A stretch of DNA of 64,000 nt. Origin: Candidatus Binataceae bacterium (GTDB lineage: Bacteria > Desulfobacterota > Binatia > Binatales > Binataceae). The DNA is taken from positions 190 to 64,189 of the forward strand of contig DATDGX010000147.1 in NCBI GenBank assembly GCA_036521875.1, written 5' to 3'. Of the stretch, positions 11,989 through 33,005 are shown piece by piece (position 1 is the stretch's first letter; the number at the start of each line of letters is the position of its first letter). The notes below the pieces were generated by a model that was given only the letters and a program-made list of their open reading frames with translations, had not been told where the DNA came from and did no database searches. A program made the translations under genes and the position numbers.

Positions 11989-12414
11989 TTACAGCAGGCG
12001 AGTATCCTCCGCCGGTTGATCGAACCGATCATGGCGGCCATCGGCATATCTGATCGGTCCCGCCGCGAGCTCGTTGGGATCGGCGTCATCGAGCGACGCA
12101 ACCGAGACGAAGTAAAACCTGCCCCCCATCGATTCGTGCTCCCCCCACCCGAAGGCGCGGACGCCGCACGTTCTGCAGAAGTGGTAGTGCAGGAACGCGC
12201 CGGGCCGGCCCGGAGGCACCCACTGATATTCCGCCTGCGCGTCAGCTCCCGCGAGCAGGCGAAAGCGATCCGCAGGCTTCACGAACACAAACCACGCGCG
12301 CGACTTGGTGCACATCGAGCAGTTGCACTTATTGGTGCCCGCGCTGAGATCGATGTCGGCCTGGAAGCGTACGGCGCCGCAATGACAGCTTCCCGAGTAG
12401 GTTTTCAAAGCCAC
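11989..12414 (-). CDS. GFA-family protein (glutathione-dependent formaldehyde-activating / CENP-V-like Zn-ribbon)
   Basis: YSGSCHCGAVRF...CNCSMC...C.TCG zinc-binding Cys pattern. Proposed start GTG 12412-12414 (MALKTYSGSCHCG) with GGAGGA RBS 6 nt upstream (12421-12426); the ATG at 12427-12429 would place the RBS inside the coding sequence. Confidence 0.75.
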   Translation of the reverse strand: MALKTYSGSCHCGAVRFQADIDLSAGTNKCNCSMCTKSRAWFVFVKPADRFRLLAGADAQAEYQWVPPGRPGAFLHYHFCRTCGVRAFGWGEHESMGGRFYFVSVASLDDADPNELAAGPIRYADGRHDRFDQPAEDTRLL

Positions 12415-12555
12415 GGTTGGTCCTCCCATGCGCACCGCGCGGTCCGAGGTGAGCCAGCGCGGCGCGCCGCTTCTGGTCGAAGAGCAGCACGCGAATTGCC
12501 CTGCACCAGCCATCCATTACCCCGCGGAGCCGACGCGGGCAATCTCGAATGAAGA
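12400..12555 (-). repeat. Copy A of about 150-bp direct repeat (GFA 5' end plus upstream leader)
   Basis: Near-identical to 17327-17500 apart from a 20-nt divergent patch (12452-12471) and a roughly 30-nt indel. Confidence 0.85.
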
Positions 12556-12986
12556 TTCCCGCGACTTCCTTGTAGGAGCTGTGTGTAGATTAGATTCGAT
12601 CCAGCCATCGACAACGGTCTTGCTGGATCAGCTTGGGAGCCAACAACGGAAATCACCGCGAACCAACGGCGATTCTTTTCTCTACGGATCCGACGATCTC
12701 TCGAATGTTGCGCCAGTAACGGGCATCTTCTCGCCAAGGTAATTTCCCGTGACACCGATGTTTCTAATCCCCCTTGCTCCGCCACCGAGTCGCAGCGTTC
12801 TGGCTTCTCTTCGACCGACCCTCCAGAGAGCGCCCTTTTTCGGGCTTGCGTGTGAATTCACGGTTGGCGTGGCACTCGCAGAGAGTAAGATGTTTGCGCT
12901 CTCCGCGAAAATGAGCCACTTTTCTCTTCAGCAACACGGAATCAGAGGCATTACCCGTTGTCGATCTGGGGTTGAGATAGAGGCTC

Positions 12987-13376
12987 ATGATCGTCGAAAA
13001 CGATTTGGCTTCCAGCAGCACACGGATGGTTATTTTTTGGGGACCAGGCGTGCTCGCGCTGGTCTTCGCCGCGCAGCTCGGCTGGTGGGGACACACGATC
13101 GGCTGGACGGCGGGACTGCTCTGGCTTGCGGCTATCTGCCTGTGGAACAGCGCTCGCTGCCGAAGAGTTCACTGCATCTTCACCGGCCCGTTTTTCCTCG
13201 CCATGGCGGTTGTCACTCTGCTCGTGGGCTTCAGGGTTTTCTCGCTGGGAGACAGTGCGTGGAAACTGCTGGGCGATACGATTCTGATTGGCGGTATTGT
13301 TCTCTGCTTCGGTTCGGAACTGATTTGGGGCCGCTACTGGCGGAGCGTGCAAAGGGAGCCCAACGCCAGCACCTAA
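12987..13376 (+). CDS. Hypothetical 4-TM membrane protein
   Basis: 129-aa ORF with four hydrophobic helices and a CRRVHC..TGPFF motif. Sits in a lower-GC patch and is divergently oriented from GFA. No family recognised. Confidence 0.35.
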   Translation: MIVENDLASSSTRMVIFWGPGVLALVFAAQLGWWGHTIGWTAGLLWLAAICLWNSARCRRVHCIFTGPFFLAMAVVTLLVGFRVFSLGDSAWKLLGDTILIGGIVLCFGSELIWGRYWRSVQREPNAST

Positions 13377-13603
13377 TTGCTTGGATCGGTAAACAGCATG
13401 CGCAGCGCGCGGAGTCTCATCGCTCTACTCCGGCGTCCGGCTTTTTCCGTCGCGCTTTTGCATCGGCGCGGTCAGAGAGTCCTTAGAGGGCTCTTTTGGT
13501 TACATGCGACACATGAGCGCGACGTACCGAATGACCAACAGTGAATCGGAGCATTACCCAATCGATGGCGGAAGAGCGCGCAATCAAGTTGAACGTCACT
13601 CGG

Positions 13604-13657
13604 CGGCGGCGAAGTTCGACCTCGAGTTGGTGTTCACGCACCAGGATATGCGGATGA
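13604..13657. repeat. Inverted repeat, left arm (about 54 bp)
   Basis: Its reverse complement matches 15041-15096 at about 49/55 positions (core ATCCGCATnTCCTGnTGCGTGAACACCAACTCGAGGTCGAACT). Confidence 0.85.
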
Positions 13658-13723
13658 CGAAACGGGATAATAGCGCTGCGGTGTCGCGGCGCGCGGCGGA
13701 CCTGACGCTTCAACTCTCGCGGA

Positions 13724-14866
13724 CTAGGCTATTGCGCGGATCGATTCGACCACCGATCGGCGTACGGAACCAATCGCGGGGACCAATCCAGCCACTGCCC
13801 CGATGGCAATCGACATAACAAAGGCCTGCGCAACCACCAATGGCGAAACAATCGCGAGCAGATCTACCGGTCCCAGCGGCAGAAATGCGAACGGCAGAAC
13901 CTTCGCGACAAGAAAAGTTGCCGCGCACCCAAGCGCGCCTCCCACGACGCCCAAGAACGCTGATTCGGCGACCGTCAGGCACAGGACCAGCGCGGGACTG
14001 AAACCGATCGCACGCATGACGGCGATTTCAGTATGCCTCTCGCGCACGGCTATCACCACGGTGTTGAGCGCGACCAATGCGACCGCGGCCACGACGAGGA
14101 TAGCCATCGCTCGGAGCATCGCGAAAAGCGTGTCGAAGTTGACGAAGTTGGCAAACCACGAGGCCTCGGATTGGCTATGAGTCTCCGCCGCCGAGTTTGA
14201 GAATATCTCATCGATCGCAGCGATCGCCGAGGGCACCGAATCGGCGCGATCGAGCATCACGTGATATGCATTCACGGACGGGCGCCCAGCCAGCGACCGT
14301 TCCAGGTAGTCGCGGCGAAAGAGCAAAGCGTCAGGCGGCGCGCTGGCACCCAAGGTGTCGGCGATTCGCAGTGTCACATCCACTGGCACAATGGTGCCCT
14401 TGAGGATGATCTGCTCGCCGACGTGCCAGCCGTACTTTCGCAGCATCGCCGCCGGTACGAGACATGCCATCGTGCTGGCGCGGAACTCGCTCGCCCGCTT
14501 CGGAGTGACGCCCCAATCCGGCCACATCAATTCCGCCTGGTCCGCGTCGACCGCGATTCCGAGTTGGTCACTGGGACTACGGTAGACTCCGCCGAAGTAC
14601 ACTAGTCCCGAAGCTGCAACGACGTGCGGCGCCGCGAGAATTTTTCGCTTGTACGAATCGGGCAGAGGATTGAAAAATCCCGAGGCGCTCATCACCGCGA
14701 TTCGCCGTGCGGAATCGGGCGTGCTCAGCATTCGGCGGGTGACGTTTGGCAGGCTTGACAGCGACGAGTAAGTGAACGCCGCCAAGGCAATCGCCAAGGT
14801 GGTGAGAACCGTCCGTCGCGGACTGCGGCGCAGGTTCCTCCACACCAGCATCGCAAACTTCATCAC
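13724..14866 (-). CDS. ABC transporter permease, FtsX/MacB-like (orphan; no ATPase gene adjacent)
   Basis: 380 aa; N-terminal TM, large periplasmic domain, C-terminal FtsX 3-4 TM bundle (AVMRAIGFSPALV...). Confidence 0.8.
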   Translation of the reverse strand: MMKFAMLVWRNLRRSPRRTVLTTLAIALAAFTYSSLSSLPNVTRRMLSTPDSARRIAVMSASGFFNPLPDSYKRKILAAPHVVAASGLVYFGGVYRSPSDQLGIAVDADQAELMWPDWGVTPKRASEFRASTMACLVPAAMLRKYGWHVGEQIILKGTIVPVDVTLRIADTLGASAPPDALLFRRDYLERSLAGRPSVNAYHVMLDRADSVPSAIAAIDEIFSNSAAETHSQSEASWFANFVNFDTLFAMLRAMAILVVAAVALVALNTVVIAVRERHTEIAVMRAIGFSPALVLCLTVAESAFLGVVGGALGCAATFLVAKVLPFAFLPLGPVDLLAIVSPLVVAQAFVMSIAIGAVAGLVPAIGSVRRSVVESIRAIA

Positions 14867-14869
14867 TGG

Positions 14870-15577
14870 CTAACCAGCCGCGTCACTCGGCGGCAGCGCG
14901 GAGCTTGATCGAATCGAGCCCCGAGCGCGCTTCGTCCATCGCTTGTTGGCGGAGGCCGAAATACAAAGCGATCGCGCGATCCGCCTTGAACAGATGATAG
15001 GACGAGATAACGTCAGGATGGTTGCGCTGCTGGCTCGCGAGCATCCGCATGTCCTGATGCGTGAACACCAACTCGAGGTCGAACTCCGCAGCCAGCCACG
15101 CAACGGTTCCGCCGCCCAGCCATCCCGCAGGAATGAAACGGGATAGTCACGCTGCACGGTGCTGGTTCGCGGGCCTGGATCCGCCGCTTCGGGAAATCTC
15201 GGGATTTCCGTGGCGGAATCACCGTACCAATAACAGACGAGACCGTGCGCCTCGCGGACCTGGCGCGTCGGCAAATCGAAACCGCCCGGCACCGGCTGGC
15301 CATCGCGTTGGCGGGAATCAGCACGCAGCGGCCGGCGGAATCGAAGCGCAGTCCATGAAACGGACATACCTAGGCAGTCGTCGCGGACCCAGCCCAGGCT
15401 TAGTTGCGGCGCGCGATGCGGGCAGCGGTCGGTCATGCACACGGCGGCGCCGCTCCGGTCGCGCCACAACACCAGTCGCTCGCTCAGGCGCGTGATACCG
15501 ACCGGTTTGCGCCGTTTCAATTTCGTGCTGTCGAAGATCGGATACCACTGATTAAGAGTCAAATCGTTGGGAGTCAT
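14870..15577 (-). pseudogene. Rieske [2Fe-2S] non-heme-iron oxygenase alpha-subunit remnant (VanA-like), frameshifted and C-terminally truncated
   Basis: First Rieske box CPHRAPQLSLG is intact. Second box CPFHGLRFDSAGRCV is only readable in the +1 frame (about 15330-15390), and the frame then returns (GQPVPGGFDLPTRQV..GLVCYWYGD). No catalytic domain with the Fe-binding His/Asp motif follows before the FtsX gene. Confidence 0.6.
15041..15096. repeat. Inverted repeat, right arm (about 56 bp)
   Basis: Partner of 13604-13657. Lies inside the 3' part of the Rieske remnant, 175 nt upstream of the FtsX start. Confidence 0.85.
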
Positions 15578-16236
15578 GGGTCCTCCTTTGATAGTGCGCT
15601 GGCGCGAGGAAACAATCCACGCAGGACGATCGTGGTGCCGCGGTAGATTTCGTTGCGCACCATCTCGGCGCTGATCGCGTCGTTCATCAGATAGGCGGTC
15701 AACCAGGTGAAGCAGACGCTGTAGAGGACCGTCGCCACGGGCATCGGTTCTGTGTCAGATGCGAGAACGCCGTTGCTCCGGTATCGCTCGAGCAGCGTTT
15801 CGAGCTGAGAAACCAGGTGCGCGTCAGCTTCGAACAGGCGCTGCCCTACCGTGGATGGCTCCGCGATCGCGGCGCCGAAAAGTTCGCGCCATAGCCGCCG
15901 ATCCTCACGCGTGAAGTCGTCAAGAAAAATTCCGGTCAACGCGGACACCGCCGCGACCGGGTCGCGCGTAGGGTCGTCGAGGATCTTCCGCCCGCGAGCA
16001 AGCACCGATTCGGTTTCACCCCGGATGATCGCGAACAGCAGCGCGGACTTGGAGGGGAAGTAGTTGTAGATGGTGCCGACCGCGAGGCCCGCGCGCTCGG
16101 CGACGTCTTCCATCGCGGTCTCGGCGTAGCTTTTTCTGGCGAACAATTTCCGCGCTGCCGCGACAATACGGCACTCGCGATCCTGCTTCTGGCGGTCGCG
16201 GAATCCAGGTGGCCGCTCAGCTAAAGATGAATCCAT
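15574..16236 (-). CDS. TetR/AcrR-family transcriptional regulator
   Basis: N-terminal HTH (AARKLFARKSYAETAMEDVAERAGLAVGTIYNYFPSKSALL). Stop overlaps the start of the Rieske remnant. Confidence 0.85.
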   Translation of the reverse strand: MDSSLAERPPGFRDRQKQDRECRIVAAARKLFARKSYAETAMEDVAERAGLAVGTIYNYFPSKSALLFAIIRGETESVLARGRKILDDPTRDPVAAVSALTGIFLDDFTREDRRLWRELFGAAIAEPSTVGQRLFEADAHLVSQLETLLERYRSNGVLASDTEPMPVATVLYSVCFTWLTAYLMNDAISAEMVRNEIYRGTTIVLRGLFPRASALSKEDP

Positions 16237-17326
16237 TCATTGTGTTTTTAGCGCCGATCGGCGCCCATGTCAAGAAACCTGAATCGATTCATCTTTGGTC
16301 GTAAGACCACTTCGGGTGGCGCTCACGGTGAGCGAGGTGGGAAGCGCGGCGTCATCTTCGACGAAGAACATGACTGTATCTGATTAAACGGTGTGCGCGC
16401 GATTCGTCCCCATCTTTAGCGCCGGCGCCGTAGCGGTTGTTCATGCAAATCGCGCGACTCCGATCGCCGAATCGCTGGCCAGCTTCTCGACCAGCTCGTC
16501 GCCGCCATGCGCTTCGACTCCGCACCGCACTTGGAGGCGATGGCGCTGCAATTGAGCGCAGTAATGTAACCCGGTGAAGAACCATCACCGCAGAGCTTAG
16601 AGGTTGGTCGGTTGCCACTCAACTCGCTAGAAGAGGTACCGTTCCTGTTTTCGAGGGCTCAGCGGCTCGCACGCTGAATTCCTGGCGGAGGGAGGTGAAT
16701 TCGAACTCGCGGTACCGATTCTGAAACTTCCAGACGACAGCTCTTAGTGATGATTTTCGAAACTGCTCGACGAGCGACCGGGACGCCCTTTCCTCAAGTC
16801 TACCAACAACGGCTCATCAGAATGTCGTCGAACTAAACAACCAGCTGTCTTGGGTTGAGATTGGGCGGGCGGTTGGATTCACGATTTTCTGTGCTCCTCT
16901 TCGGCTTCGCGCGAAATCAGTCTCCACTTTCTCCTACGAGTCGGAACCTGCCTACTGAGCGATAGGAATTGAGCTGAGTCAGTGTCGAATTGTTCGCCCG
17001 ACTCGTCTTCTTGCGCTTCGTCCATGCGTCGCAATCGATCCATCAGTTCAGCTTTTGACTGGGGAGACGGGTCCGGCTCGCGGGTCATTCGCTTTCGCCA
17101 GTCGGGTAGAAAGCGGTCTCATAGCCGCGACGTGAGAAAGTCATCGTCGAGCGGAGGGTGCGGAGCGAAACTATAGATGCCTCTGTCGAGCACCTCCGGC
17201 GGCAGGGCCGAGTAATACTCATTGAGCTTCGCGAGGTCCGCCTTCAACTCGTCACCTGGAATGAACGCCTGTCGGTCGGTCAGGAACAGGGGAACGGTGC
17301 GCATGTGAAGTCCATCGTCGGAGGGA

Positions 17327-17500
17327 GGTTTTCAAAGCCACGGTTGGTCCTCCAATGCGCACCGCGCGGTCCGAGGCGAACCGCCGCCGCGCGCTGCTTC
17401 TGGTCGAAGAGCAGCACGCGAATTGCCCTGCACCAGCCATCCATTACCCCGCGGAGTTGACGCGGGCAATCGCGGACTTCAGTAACTGATTGCGTTGCGC
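17327..17500 (-). repeat. Copy B of about 150-bp direct repeat (truncated duplicate of GFA 5' end)
   Basis: Retains GGAGGA-N6-GTG and the first codons VALKT of GFA, then diverges. Sits in a gene-poor region. Confidence 0.85.
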
Positions 17501-17839
17501 GCTGAATGAAGATCTCGCGCAGGCGGACATTGTCGGCCTTGATGGTGGGCGATCCGCCGCCCCAGTCGTCGCCGGGGGTGGGCTGGCGGTAGCGCTGCTT
17601 GCCCAGTCGCAGCTCCCACAGGTGCTGATTGTGCCTACCCATGGCGGCCTGGACGACGTCATGCACCTGAAGTTGACTTTGAGGGCTGGGCGCAGGAACG
17701 ATGGCTTCAAGGGGCGAAGGGTGCCGGCGGCGGAAGGGGGCGCAGTCTCGCGTCGCTTGTCCGCGTGGAGCGGTCGTGATGGAAGCTCCGCGATGCTAGT
17801 CAGAACCACGGATGGGCGCGCCTGAACTCGCCCCACTGT

Positions 17840-18232
17840 ATGCGAGTGCAAGGAGACGAGATGGACGAGGACCACCAGTCGATCGATGAACAAACGGTGA
17901 GGAAGCTCGATCAGTCATGGAATCAGGTCTACCTACGTAACGATCGCTCCGCGTTTGCCGAAATTCTGGCCGACGACTTCTGTGTGACTCTCGCCGACGG
18001 TCGAACGGGAGGCAAGGTCGATATGATGAAACCTACCCCAGAGGGAGCGAAGGTGAGCTTCAGCGAACCTGGCGTCCAGATTTTCTCTCCTACCGCGGTG
18101 ACCCGAGGGCGGGTTCGAATCGAGCATCCCGACCGGGTGGTGGATCAGCGGTACGTGCGCGTGTACTCGAAGCGGGCCAAAGGTTGGCAGGCAGTGTGCG
18201 TATTCGTCTTCCCGGTCGGTGAGGAAGTGTAG
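17840..18232 (+). CDS. Nuclear transport factor 2 (SnoaL/DUF4440-like) family protein
   Basis: VRKLDQSWNQVYLRNDRSAFAEILADDFCVTLADG is the usual N-terminal signature of DUF4440/SnoaL-like proteins; 130 aa. Confidence 0.6.
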   Translation: MRVQGDEMDEDHQSIDEQTVRKLDQSWNQVYLRNDRSAFAEILADDFCVTLADGRTGGKVDMMKPTPEGAKVSFSEPGVQIFSPTAVTRGRVRIEHPDRVVDQRYVRVYSKRAKGWQAVCVFVFPVGEEV

Positions 18233-31865: not shown

Positions 31866-33005
31866 TCAGTAGTGGTTGAGTCGCGCGAGGCGATCGGCGT
31901 GGAAGTTCGCGTCGCCGAACAGTTCCTGTCCGACGCGGACGCGCTTCATGAACAGGCCCACGTCGAATTCGTCGGTCATCCCGATGCCGCCGTGCATTTG
32001 GACCGCCTCCTGCACTGCGAGCGTGGCGCTGCCGCCGGCGCGCGCTTTTGCCAACGAGACGACCGCGCCTGCCGTGTCGAACGACTCGTCGAGAGTCTGC
32101 AGCGCCTTCAACACCGCGGAGCGGGTGACTTCCAGCTCGCAGTAGAGGTGAGCCGCGCGATGCTGTAGTGCCTGGAATTCGCCGATCGCTTTTCCGAATT
32201 GCTTGCGCTCCCGCAGATAGCCCACCGTTCTGCCGAACGCCTCTTCGCTGGCTCCCACCAGCTCCGCCGCGACCGCGGCACGGCCCACGTTCAGCGTGCC
32301 CTCCAGGATGCTCCAGCCCGCGTCGACCTTGCCGAGCACCGCGTCGGCGCCGGCGCTGACATTTTCGAACTTGATGCGCGCCGCGTTGTGAGTATCGACC
32401 ATCGGCGTGCGCTCTGCGCTGATCCCTTTCGTTTTCGAATCTAGAACGAACAGAGTGATGCCTTTGTTGTCGCCGGACGCACCCGCGGTTCGCGCCGCGA
32501 CGATCAGGATATCGGCGACGTGACCGTCGACGACGAAGGTCTTGGCCCCGTTCAGCGTGAATCCGTTTCCGGTGCGGGTCGCGGTCAGCGCGGTTTTTTC
32601 GGGGCGATGCTTCGCGGTTTCGTCGATCGCGAGCGCTGCGATCAGTTCGCCGCTAACGATTCGCGGCAGATACTTTTTCTTTTGCGCGTCGCTGCCGCCG
32701 CGCGAGATCGCACTGGCGGCAAGAAGAGCCGTCGACAGGAACGGCGAGGGCGCAAGCGTGCGCCCGAGCTCTTCCATCACCACGCCGGCTTCGACGTGGC
32801 CGAGTCCGAGTCCGCCGTACTCCTGCGGGACCAAGATGCCCGCCCAGCCCATCTCGACAAAGTCCTTCCACAGTTGGCGCGAGAAGCCATCCGGGTCGCG
32901 AGTGTCGCGGAGCTGGCGCAGGTGCGCGATCGGTGCGTTCTTGCCGAGAAAGCCACGCGCGTTGTCGCGCAGCATCGCTTGTTCGTCGGTGAGGACCAGT
33001 GCCAT
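31866..33005 (-). CDS. Acyl-CoA dehydrogenase family protein
   Basis: 379 aa with ACAD N, middle and C domains (IGMTDEFDVGLFMKR...). Confidence 0.85.
   Translation of the reverse strand: MALVLTDEQAMLRDNARGFLGKNAPIAHLRQLRDTRDPDGFSRQLWKDFVEMGWAGILVPQEYGGLGLGHVEAGVVMEELGRTLAPSPFLSTALLAASAISRGGSDAQKKKYLPRIVSGELIAALAIDETAKHRPEKTALTATRTGNGFTLNGAKTFVVDGHVADILIVAARTAGASGDNKGITLFVLDSKTKGISAERTPMVDTHNAARIKFENVSAGADAVLGKVDAGWSILEGTLNVGRAAVAAELVGASEEAFGRTVGYLRERKQFGKAIGEFQALQHRAAHLYCELEVTRSAVLKALQTLDESFDTAGAVVSLAKARAGGSATLAVQEAVQMHGGIGMTDEFDVGLFMKRVRVGQELFGDANFHADRLARLNHY

What the first reader, a model, noticed from the sequence alone, without database searches (positions are those of the whole stretch)
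13604..15096. Orphan FtsX permease gene bracketed by about 55-bp inverted repeats derived from a duplicated, inverted gene fragment
The sequence at 13604-13657 is the reverse complement of 15041-15096 at about 49 of 55 positions. Both arms encode the same peptide (AA-E/K-FDLELVFTHQDMRM) on opposite strands, so a coding fragment was duplicated and inverted. The 1.4-kb interior holds only an FtsX/MacB-type permease with no partner ABC ATPase or periplasmic adaptor anywhere nearby. I see three candidate explanations: a non-autonomous element with terminal inverted repeats carrying a passenger gene; an invertible segment; or a scar of an inversion-duplication that destroyed a Rieske oxygenase and split an ABC operon.
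Basis: seen in the sequence. Interest (0 to 1): 0.6.

Follow-up and report, generated by a model that had tools for sequence, protein, structure and literature searches.

The report
Inverted gene-fragment scar beside FtsX permease
The inverted repeat is real, but it is an ordinary mutational scar: a short stray copy of the neighbouring, already dead Rieske oxygenase gene, pasted backwards just past the permease gene in one lineage of uncultured Binatia soil bacteria.

Summary
The repeat exists: 13605-13656 pairs with 15042-15093 at 48 of 52 positions, far beyond chance. The two arms are not equivalent ends of an element.

- **Right arm:** native, in-frame coding sequence of a Rieske/VanA_C oxygenase gene, collinear with orthologues on both sides.
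- **Left arm:** an extra 61-nt inverted copy about 40 nt past the FtsX stop codon. A 21-nt piece of the same gene in the opposite relative orientation follows 2 nt away, so this is a two-piece patch.
- **Source segments:** they flank a 307-nt deletion in the resident Rieske gene, which also carries two frameshifts. It is a pseudogene.
- **Relatives:** 23 orthologous Binatia loci each hold one copy of the arm sequence, inside an intact Rieske gene where the contig allows. None has the patch or the deletion.
- **Orientation:** two other assemblies of this lineage (99.5% and 100% identical) show the same structure in the same orientation.
- **Mobility:** no recombinase, transposase or target duplication, and no plasmid or phage match.
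- **Orphan FtsX:** this is ancestral. The clade sits directly after an oxygenase gene (Rieske, P450, 2OG-Fe(II), FMO) with no ATPase, and the gene is still under purifying selection.

Best reading: a neutral scar of template switching. Interest is low.

The parts
13596..13656 (+). Left arm (b'): an extra, inverted copy of Rieske gene nt ~788-849 (codons ~263-283). It lies in non-coding spacer downstream of FtsX, and its sense strand is the + strand.
   Evidence: It matches the orthologous Rieske segment in all 23 related loci at 84-96% over 48-67 nt, always on the opposite strand to the rest of the cassette. tblastn shows 17 of 17 residues identical to L001 Rieske residues 267-283. It keeps the ancestral AAG (Lys) where the resident copy has GAG (Glu), and has two changes of its own, CAC and GAT (alignment).
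13659..13679 (-). Second patch piece (c'): a 21-nt copy of Rieske gene nt 429-449, in the same orientation as the resident gene and therefore opposite to b'. It lies 2 nt from the arm.
   Evidence: Its best local alignment falls at the same gene position in 7 of 8 Rieske genes. In 4 orthologues the score exceeds all 200 shuffles. By my reading of the alignment, about 20 of 21 positions match L012. The resident source is 15135-15155 (family D1).
13686..13723 (-). Native 3' flank of the FtsX gene, conserved with relatives. The patch begins just beyond it.
   Evidence: TCCGCGAGAGTTGAAGCGTCAGGTCCGCCGCG aligns with the sequence after the FtsX stop codon in L001, L012 and L005.
13393..13595 (.). About 200 nt of spacer of unknown origin between the patch and the conserved neighbour gene. 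In relative L006 the two genes are only about 43 nt apart by the called gene coordinates.
   Evidence: It has no match to any fetched locus or elsewhere in the window. L006 homology resumes at 13392.
13724..14866 (-). Intact FtsX/MacB_PCD-type permease gene. The product is 379 aa from the ATG at 14863 and is identical to P0001, which NCBI names as a Candidatus Binataceae ABC transporter permease.
   Evidence: Pfam FtsX 7.9e-13 and MacB_PCD 7.2e-07. It is 100% identical to P0001. dN/dS against orthologues is 0.11-0.14, compared with 0.04-0.11 (mostly ~0.10) among orthologue pairs.
14883..15577 (-). Rieske/VanA_C oxygenase pseudogene. It has an extra A at 15371 (+1) and a 1-nt loss between 15307 and 15306 (-1); together these put the CPFHG half of the 2Fe-2S motif out of frame. 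It also has a 6-nt deletion, a 3-nt deletion near the 3' end, and a 307-nt deletion at 15126|15127 that removes the DMHHVPFVH iron site.
   Evidence: Three-frame translation, DNA alignment with five intact orthologues, and Pfam Rieske on the N-terminal part only. It retains 230 of 339 orthologue codons.
15042..15093 (-). Right arm (b): the native, in-frame segment of the resident Rieske gene. It is not a repeat terminus.
   Evidence: Window 15127-13707 aligns without interruption to L001 9734-11158. In the alignment, the arm occupies the same position in every orthologue.
15135..15155 (-). Resident source segment c. It ends about 9 nt 5' of the 307-nt deletion junction.
15574..16236 (-). TetR-family regulator, the first gene of the cassette. 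It is joined directly to the Rieske gene with no STAS gene between, as in L007, L016, L026 and L028.
   Evidence: Pfam TetR_N 5e-17. The window aligns contiguously to L007, L016, L026 and L028 across the TetR-Rieske junction.
12987..13376 (+). Conserved 129-aa neighbour gene (apparently a membrane protein), convergent with FtsX.
   Evidence: It is 82% nt-identical to the 134-aa gene that directly follows FtsX in L006. It has no Pfam or NCBIfam family.

Best explanation
The inverted repeat is a neutral, lineage-specific scar with no function of its own. The organism is an uncultured member of the Binataceae.

The ancestral cassette is TetR-(STAS)-Rieske oxygenase-FtsX permease, transcribed on the - strand. 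In this lineage a short patch was written into the spacer about 40 nt downstream of the FtsX stop codon. It was templated from two nearby stretches of the Rieske gene:
- 21 nt (gene nt 429-449) in the same orientation as the gene;
- 2 nt further on, about 61 nt (gene nt ~788-849) copied from the opposite strand.

The second piece, paired with its untouched original inside the Rieske gene, is what appears as a 52-bp inverted repeat bracketing FtsX.

The most likely mechanism is replicative or repair-associated template switching, of the fold-back or microhomology-mediated kind. The nascent strand would jump back about 1.5 kb, copy a few tens of bases, switch strand, copy again, and return. This mechanism is inferred, not shown.

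The Rieske gene is independently dead (frameshifts plus a 307-nt deletion), and the deletion's edges lie 9 and 24 nt from the two source segments. The same fragile spot, or the same event, may therefore have produced both. The FtsX gene is intact, still under purifying selection, and natively lacks an ATPase partner.
For: **Shown**
- The right arm is in place in the gene, collinear with orthologues on both sides.
- The left arm is an extra inverted copy. All of L001-L004, 10 loci from genome contigs and 7 from metagenome contigs carry exactly one copy, inside a Rieske gene that is full-length wherever the contig allows. None has the patch or the ~306-nt gap.
- The adjacent 21-nt c' fragment maps to gene nt 429-449 in the opposite relative orientation. 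No shuffle out of 200 reached its score in 4 orthologues.
- The Rieske gene is a pseudogene. Its dN/dS is only slightly raised, at 0.19-0.22 against 0.13-0.18 for orthologue pairs, so the decay is recent.
- Each arm has about 2 derived changes relative to the orthologue consensus. That is about 8% divergence between the copies, against dS of about 0.5 to the nearest relatives. The copy is therefore young on this branch, yet older than the split of the two sampled strains.
- Structure and orientation are identical in L017 (JGI 3300031708, 99.5%) and L018 (Logan ERR4661004, 100%). This rules out an assembly artefact.
- There is no recombinase or transposase among the ORFs >=200 aa scanned between 1.2 and 23.5 kb or the ORFs scanned in the 12-18 kb cassette region, no tRNA or Rfam hit, and no plasmid or phage match.
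- The patch has no local structure beyond chance (z = 0.24).
- Orphan FtsX is the ancestral state of the clade.

**Established knowledge**
Short templated and inverted insertions arising by fold-back or template switching are a documented class of mutation (abstracts of PMC11724301 and PMC7954356, listed).
Against: - The mechanism is inferred from the end product only. The junctions are about 8% diverged from their sources and show only imperfect microhomology (CATCCGC against CATACCTGC at the c'/b' junction), so they do not prove template switching.
- About 200 nt of the enlarged spacer (13393-13595) have no identified source. The insertion is therefore not fully accounted for.
- No closer relative (between 89% and 99.5% FtsX identity) was found. 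The order of patch formation, the 307-nt deletion and the frameshifts is unknown.
- Only three assemblies of the lineage were seen, and no raw reads were examined. A rare minority orientation cannot be excluded.
- Only 64 kb of the source genome were available. The template could have been a second Rieske cassette elsewhere; one Binatia MAG has two (L011 and L015).
Confidence: 0.8

Rival explanations
1. Decayed larger duplication. A second, partial or whole, copy of the Rieske gene or of the Rieske-FtsX unit once lay downstream of FtsX. It arose by tandem or inverted segmental duplication, or belonged to a paralogous cassette. Later deletions and a small inversion whittled it down to the 61-nt and 21-nt remnants.
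For: Cassette content is fluid among relatives. STAS may be present or absent, FtsX is truncated to 51 codons in L010 and L029, and FtsX is absent after the Rieske gene in L008, L013, L016 and L026-L028. One MAG carries two cassettes. About 200 nt of unexplained spacer sit next to the patch. A second partial duplication, the 149-nt direct repeat at 12399/17326 of similar divergence, lies 1-4 kb away.
Against: The two remnants are in opposite orientations and only 2 nt apart, while their sources are about 340 nt apart in the gene. At least three further events would therefore be needed. No other trace of Rieske or FtsX sequence was found in the flanking 200 nt by DNA or protein search.
Confidence: 0.13
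2. RecA-dependent or recombinase-dependent invertible segment. The arms recombine to flip the FtsX gene relative to the TetR/Rieske promoter, giving ON/OFF phase variation of the permease.
For: The arms share a 28-nt perfectly identical core. From general knowledge, that is roughly the minimum length for homologous recombination. FtsX starts 15-20 nt after the Rieske stop and so probably depends on upstream transcription.
Against: All three assemblies, including a distinct strain, show one orientation. No invertase or integrase was found among the ORFs scanned. The left arm is absent from all 23 orthologous loci, so there is no conservation. The arms have diverged by 8% rather than being homogenised.
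Confidence: 0.03
3. Non-autonomous transposable element with about 55-bp terminal inverted repeats carrying FtsX as a passenger gene.
For: Only the geometry supports this: two inverted arms about 1.4 kb apart enclosing one intact gene.
Against: The right arm is in-frame native coding sequence, and the locus is collinear with orthologues straight through it. Rieske followed by FtsX is the ancestral order without a left arm. There is no target-site duplication and no other copy in the window. The scans of 185,579 species genomes and of JGI metagenomes found the sequence only as the orthologous gene. There is no plasmid or phage match.
Confidence: 0.01
4. Newly evolved RNA-level control. On a read-through pseudo-Rieske-FtsX transcript the two arms pair into a ~52-bp duplex that loops out the FtsX ORF and alters its stability or translation, for example through RNase III.
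For: If co-transcribed, the arms would form a duplex of -108 kcal/mol, against at best -51 kcal/mol for shuffles. No terminator-like site lies between the FtsX stop and the patch.
Against: There is no conservation outside one lineage and no covariation to test. The duplex energy is a trivial consequence of the duplication. The adjoining c' piece has no role in this model.
Confidence: 0.03

Closest known systems
Short templated or inverted insertions from template switching (fold-back priming, microhomology-mediated break-induced replication, quasipalindrome-type strand switching)
   Same: Tens of bases are copied from a template 1-2 kb away. One piece comes from the opposite strand, two pieces are joined almost directly, there is a nearby deletion, and no mobile-element machinery is involved. 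Abstracts of PMC11724301 and PMC7954356 (listed) describe this class.
   Different: Those papers concern yeast and great apes. The bacterial precedents I have in mind (quasipalindrome template-switch mutations in E. coli) come from my own knowledge and were not checked here. This is an old, fixed event seen only as an end product, so polymerase, break and microhomology use cannot be verified.
Gene-fragment relics beside decaying genes in bacterial genomes
   Same: There is a dead Rieske gene with frameshifts and an internal deletion, an orphan coding fragment in an intergenic spacer, slightly raised dN/dS, and locally lower G+C.
   Different: The fragment is a duplicate of a segment that is still present in the resident gene, rather than the last remnant of a lost gene.
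Invertible DNA switches (fim, hin/gin, Bacteroides invertons)
   Same: Inverted repeats bracket a segment that affects expression of a surface or membrane protein gene.
   Different: There is no site-specific recombinase, the arms are coding-derived and diverged, only one orientation is seen, and the feature is not conserved.
MacB/LolCE/FtsX type VII ABC permeases
   Same: The interior gene has the MacB_PCD periplasmic domain and the FtsX C-terminal transmembrane domain. Its best solved relatives are YtrF, LolF, MacB and LolE.
   Different: Its clade has no adjacent ATPase or adaptor and instead directly follows an oxygenase gene. A 42%-identical paralogue sits in a canonical ATPase-FtsX-FtsX-adaptor operon.

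Membership tests
Transposable element with terminal inverted repeats (MITE-like or passenger-carrying) | Both repeat arms are the ends of an inserted segment that is absent from empty orthologous sites | tested here: not met
   The right arm is native coding sequence, and the window is collinear with orthologues through it. Rieske-FtsX adjacency is ancestral.
Transposable element with terminal inverted repeats (MITE-like or passenger-carrying) | Target-site duplication directly outside the arms | tested here: not met
   The outer flanks ...GAACGTCACTC| and |AGCCACGCAAC... share no direct repeat (sequence).
Transposable element with terminal inverted repeats (MITE-like or passenger-carrying) | Multiple copies in the genome or in related genomes | tested here: not met
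   There is one match per arm in the window. The 17 hits in the genome and metagenome collections are all the orthologous gene segment, one per locus. The rest of the source genome was not available.
Invertible DNA switch | Both orientations present in the population | tested here: inconclusive
   Three assemblies, including a 99.5% strain, share one orientation.
Invertible DNA switch | A cognate serine or tyrosine recombinase nearby | tested here: not met
   Pfam scans found none among the ORFs >=200 aa between 1.2 and 23.5 kb or the ORFs scanned in the 12-18 kb cassette region. Smaller ORFs elsewhere were not all scanned.
Templated insertion / template-switch scar | The inserted sequence is a copy of nearby sequence that is still present at its source | tested here: met
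   b' matches 15042-15093 and c' matches 15135-15155. Both sources are retained in the resident gene 1.4-1.5 kb away.
Templated insertion / template-switch scar | Several pieces in different orientations joined directly, with microhomology at the junctions | tested here: inconclusive
   Two pieces in opposite orientation are joined with a 2-nt gap. Only imperfect microhomology is recognisable after about 8% divergence.
Templated insertion / template-switch scar | Absent from the orthologous site in relatives (derived state) | tested here: met
   The FtsX 3' flanks of L001, L005, L006 and L012 lack it. L006 has about 43 nt between the two genes by called coordinates, where the window has about 350.
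MacB/FtsX type VII ABC transporter permease | MacB_PCD periplasmic domain plus C-terminal FtsX transmembrane domain | tested here: met
   PF12704 scores 30.1 bits (cut-off 27) and PF02687 scores 49 bits (cut-off 25.5). PDB relatives are YtrF, LolF and MacB.
MacB/FtsX type VII ABC transporter permease | A partner nucleotide-binding subunit, fused or encoded alongside | tested here: not met
   None is present in the 64 kb or within 5-10 kb of orthologues. A partner encoded elsewhere in the genome cannot be excluded.
Rieske non-haem iron oxygenase (Rieske + VanA_C) | Intact CxH...CxxH 2Fe-2S motif and catalytic iron-site histidines in one reading frame | tested here: not met
   The second half of the motif is out of frame, and the DMHHVPFVH region is deleted in the window copy. 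Both are intact in orthologues.

The most novel reading that the evidence does not exclude
The stray inverted copy has been co-opted. On the read-through pseudo-Rieske-FtsX transcript, the 52-bp arm-to-arm duplex could clamp the FtsX coding region and tune its stability or translation. Alternatively, rare RecA-mediated inversion across the 28-nt identical core could switch FtsX expression off. In either case a random template-switch scar would have become a young regulatory device for an ATPase-less, oxygenase-linked FtsX permease.
Probability: 0.04. Interest if true: 0.45.

Novelty: already known. Interest (0 to 1): 0.15.

Why it matters
On its own this matters little. It is a clean worked example that an inverted repeat bracketing a gene can be a by-product of local template switching in a decaying operon, rather than a mobile or invertible element. 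Collinearity with orthologues distinguishes the two quickly. It also illustrates ongoing gene decay in uncultured Binatia: the oxygenase is dead while its permease partner is still maintained.

The more useful by-product is the context. The 'orphan' permease belongs to a clade of FtsX/MacB-type membrane proteins that are consistently ATPase-less. They are consistently placed directly after an oxygenase gene of one of four unrelated families. That association is untested and may deserve study in its own right.

Tried and rejected
- **Third Rieske-derived piece** (13594-13611 resembling 14881-14898, 17 of 18): not significant once the arm overlap is removed, so dropped.
- **Extension of the 21-nt c' fragment to about 65 nt** (13659-13723): rejected. 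13686-13723 is the native FtsX 3' flank, conserved in L001 and L005, and the longer alignment is not above shuffles.
- **Source of the remaining ~200-nt spacer** (13393-13595): sought in the window, in all fetched loci and by six-frame translation. Nothing was found.
- **Loss of the STAS gene as a window-specific deletion**: rejected. L007, L016, L026 and L028 have the same direct TetR-Rieske junction.
- **A second FtsX gene at 31866-33005** (379 aa): it is an acyl-CoA dehydrogenase.
- **Exact left-arm 27-mer in metagenome contigs**: 0 hits. Even L017's sample was not reached, so that collection does not cover this lineage.
- **Other screens**: Rfam, tRNA, promoter and terminator scans of the region gave nothing above background. 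A local fold of the patch gave z = 0.24. Plasmid and phage searches gave no match.
- **13-nt imperfect inverted repeat bracketing the patch** (about 13585-13597 and 13703-13715): seen in the fold. It is only marginally unlikely by chance and was not pursued.
Full report
**Observation**

The repeat is real. The repeat finder reports arms 13605-13656 and 15042-15093: 52 nt, 92% complementary, 1385 nt apart. With one gap it extends to about 51 of 56 positions. It is the only inverted repeat of this quality in the 64-kb window. It is one of only two significant local duplicates between 9 and 21 kb. No shuffle gave a match to the arm. Both arms encode the stated peptide on opposite strands: AAAKFDLELVFTHQDMRM on the + strand at the left and AAEFDLELVFTHQDMRM on the - strand at the right.

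**Gene content**

All four genes below are on the - strand.

| Coordinates | Gene | State |
|---|---|---|
| 16236-15574 | TetR regulator | intact |
| 15577-14883 | Rieske-domain gene | broken |
| 14866-13724 | FtsX/MacB_PCD permease | intact |

The permease is 100% identical to a protein that NCBI names as from a Candidatus Binataceae MAG (P0001).

The Rieske gene is a true pseudogene. Aligned with five intact orthologues, it shows:
- an extra A at 15371 and a 1-nt loss at 15307/15306, which together put the CPFHG half of the 2Fe-2S motif out of frame;
- a 6-nt deletion and a 3-nt deletion;
- a 307-nt deletion at 15126|15127, which removes the DMHHVPFVH iron-site region.

It retains 230 of 339 orthologue codons.

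**What relatives look like**

Contigs encoding 87-89% identical permeases carry TetR - SpoIIAA-like/STAS - Rieske/VanA_C (336-344 aa) - FtsX (L001-L004), or TetR - P450 - STAS - FtsX (L005, L006). No ABC ATPase lies within 10 kb.

I scanned for DNA encoding FDLELVFTHQDMRM with any codon choice. The scan found 10 loci among 185,579 species genomes and 7 in JGI metagenomes. Every locus has a single match, and every match lies inside a Rieske gene of such a cassette (full-length where the contig allows). None has a second, inverted copy, and none has the ~306-nt gap.

Some relatives (L007, L016, L026, L028) join TetR directly to the Rieske gene, as the window does. The missing STAS gene is therefore not a window-specific loss.

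**The two arms are not equivalent**

Window 15127-13707 aligns without interruption to L001 9734-11158. The right arm is therefore simply the native coding sequence, in frame and in its orthologous position, with no breakpoint beside it.

The left arm is the novelty. Positions 13596-13656 match the same Rieske segment of every relative at 84-96%, but on the opposite strand.

In L006 the FtsX gene and the next gene (the homologue of window 12987-13376) are about 43 nt apart by the called gene coordinates. In the window they are about 350 nt apart. The first 38 nt after the FtsX stop (13723-13686) are the native flank, conserved in L001, L005 and L012.

**A second piece**

Two nucleotides beyond the arm, 13659-13679 is a copy of Rieske gene nt 429-449. 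It has the same orientation as the resident gene and is therefore opposite to the arm copy. The best local alignment falls at this same gene position in 7 of 8 Rieske genes. It exceeds all 200 shuffles in four orthologues.

The left locus is thus a two-piece patch. Its sources (resident 15135-15155 and 15042-15093) lie 9 nt before and 24 nt after the 307-nt deletion. I also suspected a third piece and a longer extension of the 21-nt piece. Neither held up. About 200 nt of the spacer (13393-13595) remain unexplained.

**Age and stability**

Against the orthologue consensus:
- the left arm keeps the ancestral GGCGGCGAAG and has two changes of its own (CAC, GAT);
- the resident arm has two others, including a Lys-to-Glu change.

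That amounts to about 8% divergence between the copies, whereas dS to the nearest relatives is about 0.5. The copy is therefore young on this branch.

It is nonetheless fixed. A JGI contig from another sample (L017) differs by 11 SNPs and one 8-nt indel over 3.7 kb. It has the same arms, the same pseudogene lesions and the same orientation. An independent Logan assembly (L018) is identical to the window. An assembly artefact is thereby excluded.

**Selection**

- FtsX: dN/dS of 0.11-0.14 against orthologues, compared with 0.04-0.11 (mostly ~0.10) among orthologue pairs. The gene is still maintained.
- Rieske remnant: dN/dS of 0.19-0.22, compared with 0.13-0.18. This fits recent death.

- *Element with terminal inverted repeats.* There is no empty-site/filled-site relation at the right arm and no target duplication. 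There is no transposase, no further copy and no plasmid or phage match. This model is rejected.
- *Invertible segment.* One orientation is seen in three assemblies. There is no recombinase and no conservation. This model is not supported, although raw reads were not examined.
- *Split ABC operon.* This model is rejected. The window has no ATPase or adaptor, but neither do the orthologous cassettes.

More distant members of the permease clade are also ATPase-less:
- the 56% member follows a 2OG-Fe(II) oxygenase gene;
- the 51% member follows an FMO-like monooxygenase gene;
- the 68% member sits next to a TetR gene.

Only the 42% paralogue lies in a canonical ATPase-FtsX-FtsX-adaptor operon.

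**Mechanism (inferred)**

Three features characterise the left locus:
- two short copies of nearby sequence, one from each strand, joined almost directly;
- insertion 1.4-1.5 kb from their sources;
- sources that sit at the edges of a deletion.

This is the pattern left by template switching during replication or break repair. Short templated and inverted insertions of this kind are documented (abstracts of PMC11724301 and PMC7954356). The c'/b' junction shows only imperfect microhomology (CATCCGC against CATACCTGC).

A decayed larger duplication is the main rival. It needs more steps. A functional role is possible only in principle. If co-transcribed, the arms could form a duplex of -108 kcal/mol. 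The patch has no local structure beyond chance, and no Rfam, tRNA, promoter or terminator signal stands out.

**Verdict**

The context finding is the more interesting lead: a clade of ATPase-less FtsX permeases linked to oxygenases in Binatia.

Noticed in passing
window 13724-14866; loci L001-L006, L009, L012, L019-L020, L024, L030, L031: The permease belongs to a Binatia clade (51-89% identity) of single FtsX/MacB_PCD genes with no ABC ATPase or adaptor within 5-10 kb. Members lie directly 3' of an oxygenase from one of four unrelated families: Rieske/VanA_C, P450 (plus STAS), 2OG-Fe(II), or FMO-like. A TetR gene is often present. The 42% paralogue is in a canonical ATPase-FtsX-FtsX-adaptor operon.
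   Followed up: partly
window 12399-12547 and 17326-17474: A 146-149-nt direct repeat (93-94% identical, sharp boundaries) lies 4.9 kb apart and flanks the whole cassette region. Copy 1 is the upstream region plus the first ~11 codons of a GFA-family gene. Copy 2 is an isolated fragment in non-coding DNA. Its divergence is similar to that of the inverted arms, so it may date from the same period or the same event.
   Followed up: partly
window 12400-17400: This stretch has lower G+C (0.54-0.62, against 0.64-0.70 on either side). Outside the four cassette genes it has little recognisable coding sequence. Region 16300-17840 has no homologue in any fetched locus.
   Followed up: no
L010 764-916 and L029 785-936: In two other Binatia lineages the FtsX gene after the Rieske gene is cut down to its first ~51 codons. 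In several others (L008, L013, L016, L026-L028) no FtsX follows at all. The cassette is therefore repeatedly remodelled.
   Followed up: no
L011 and L015 (MAG MFD01138.bin.1.15): One genome carries two TetR-STAS-Rieske cassettes on different contigs. Paralogous copies that could serve as recombination or template partners therefore exist in this group.
   Followed up: no
window about 13585-13597 and 13703-13715: A 13-nt imperfect inverted repeat (AGTTGAACGTCA / TGACGCTTCAACT) brackets the two-piece patch. One half lies in the conserved FtsX 3' flank. It might be a former hairpin into whose loop the patch was written, but it is only marginally unlikely by chance.
   Followed up: partly
L001 and L003 (ENA ERZ250395xx assemblies): Several genes in these otherwise near-identical contigs are split or frame-shifted relative to L002, L004 and L012. 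In L001 the Rieske C-terminus reads in a different frame. This looks like long-read indel error, not biology.
   Followed up: no
L004 2645-3655 (intact orthologue of the window's Rieske gene): Its best NCBIfam match is the bacterial 4beta-methylsterol monooxygenase SdmA model, at 77 bits against a cut-off of 600. It is therefore not a member, only a distant relative among Rieske/VanA_C oxygenases.
   Followed up: no
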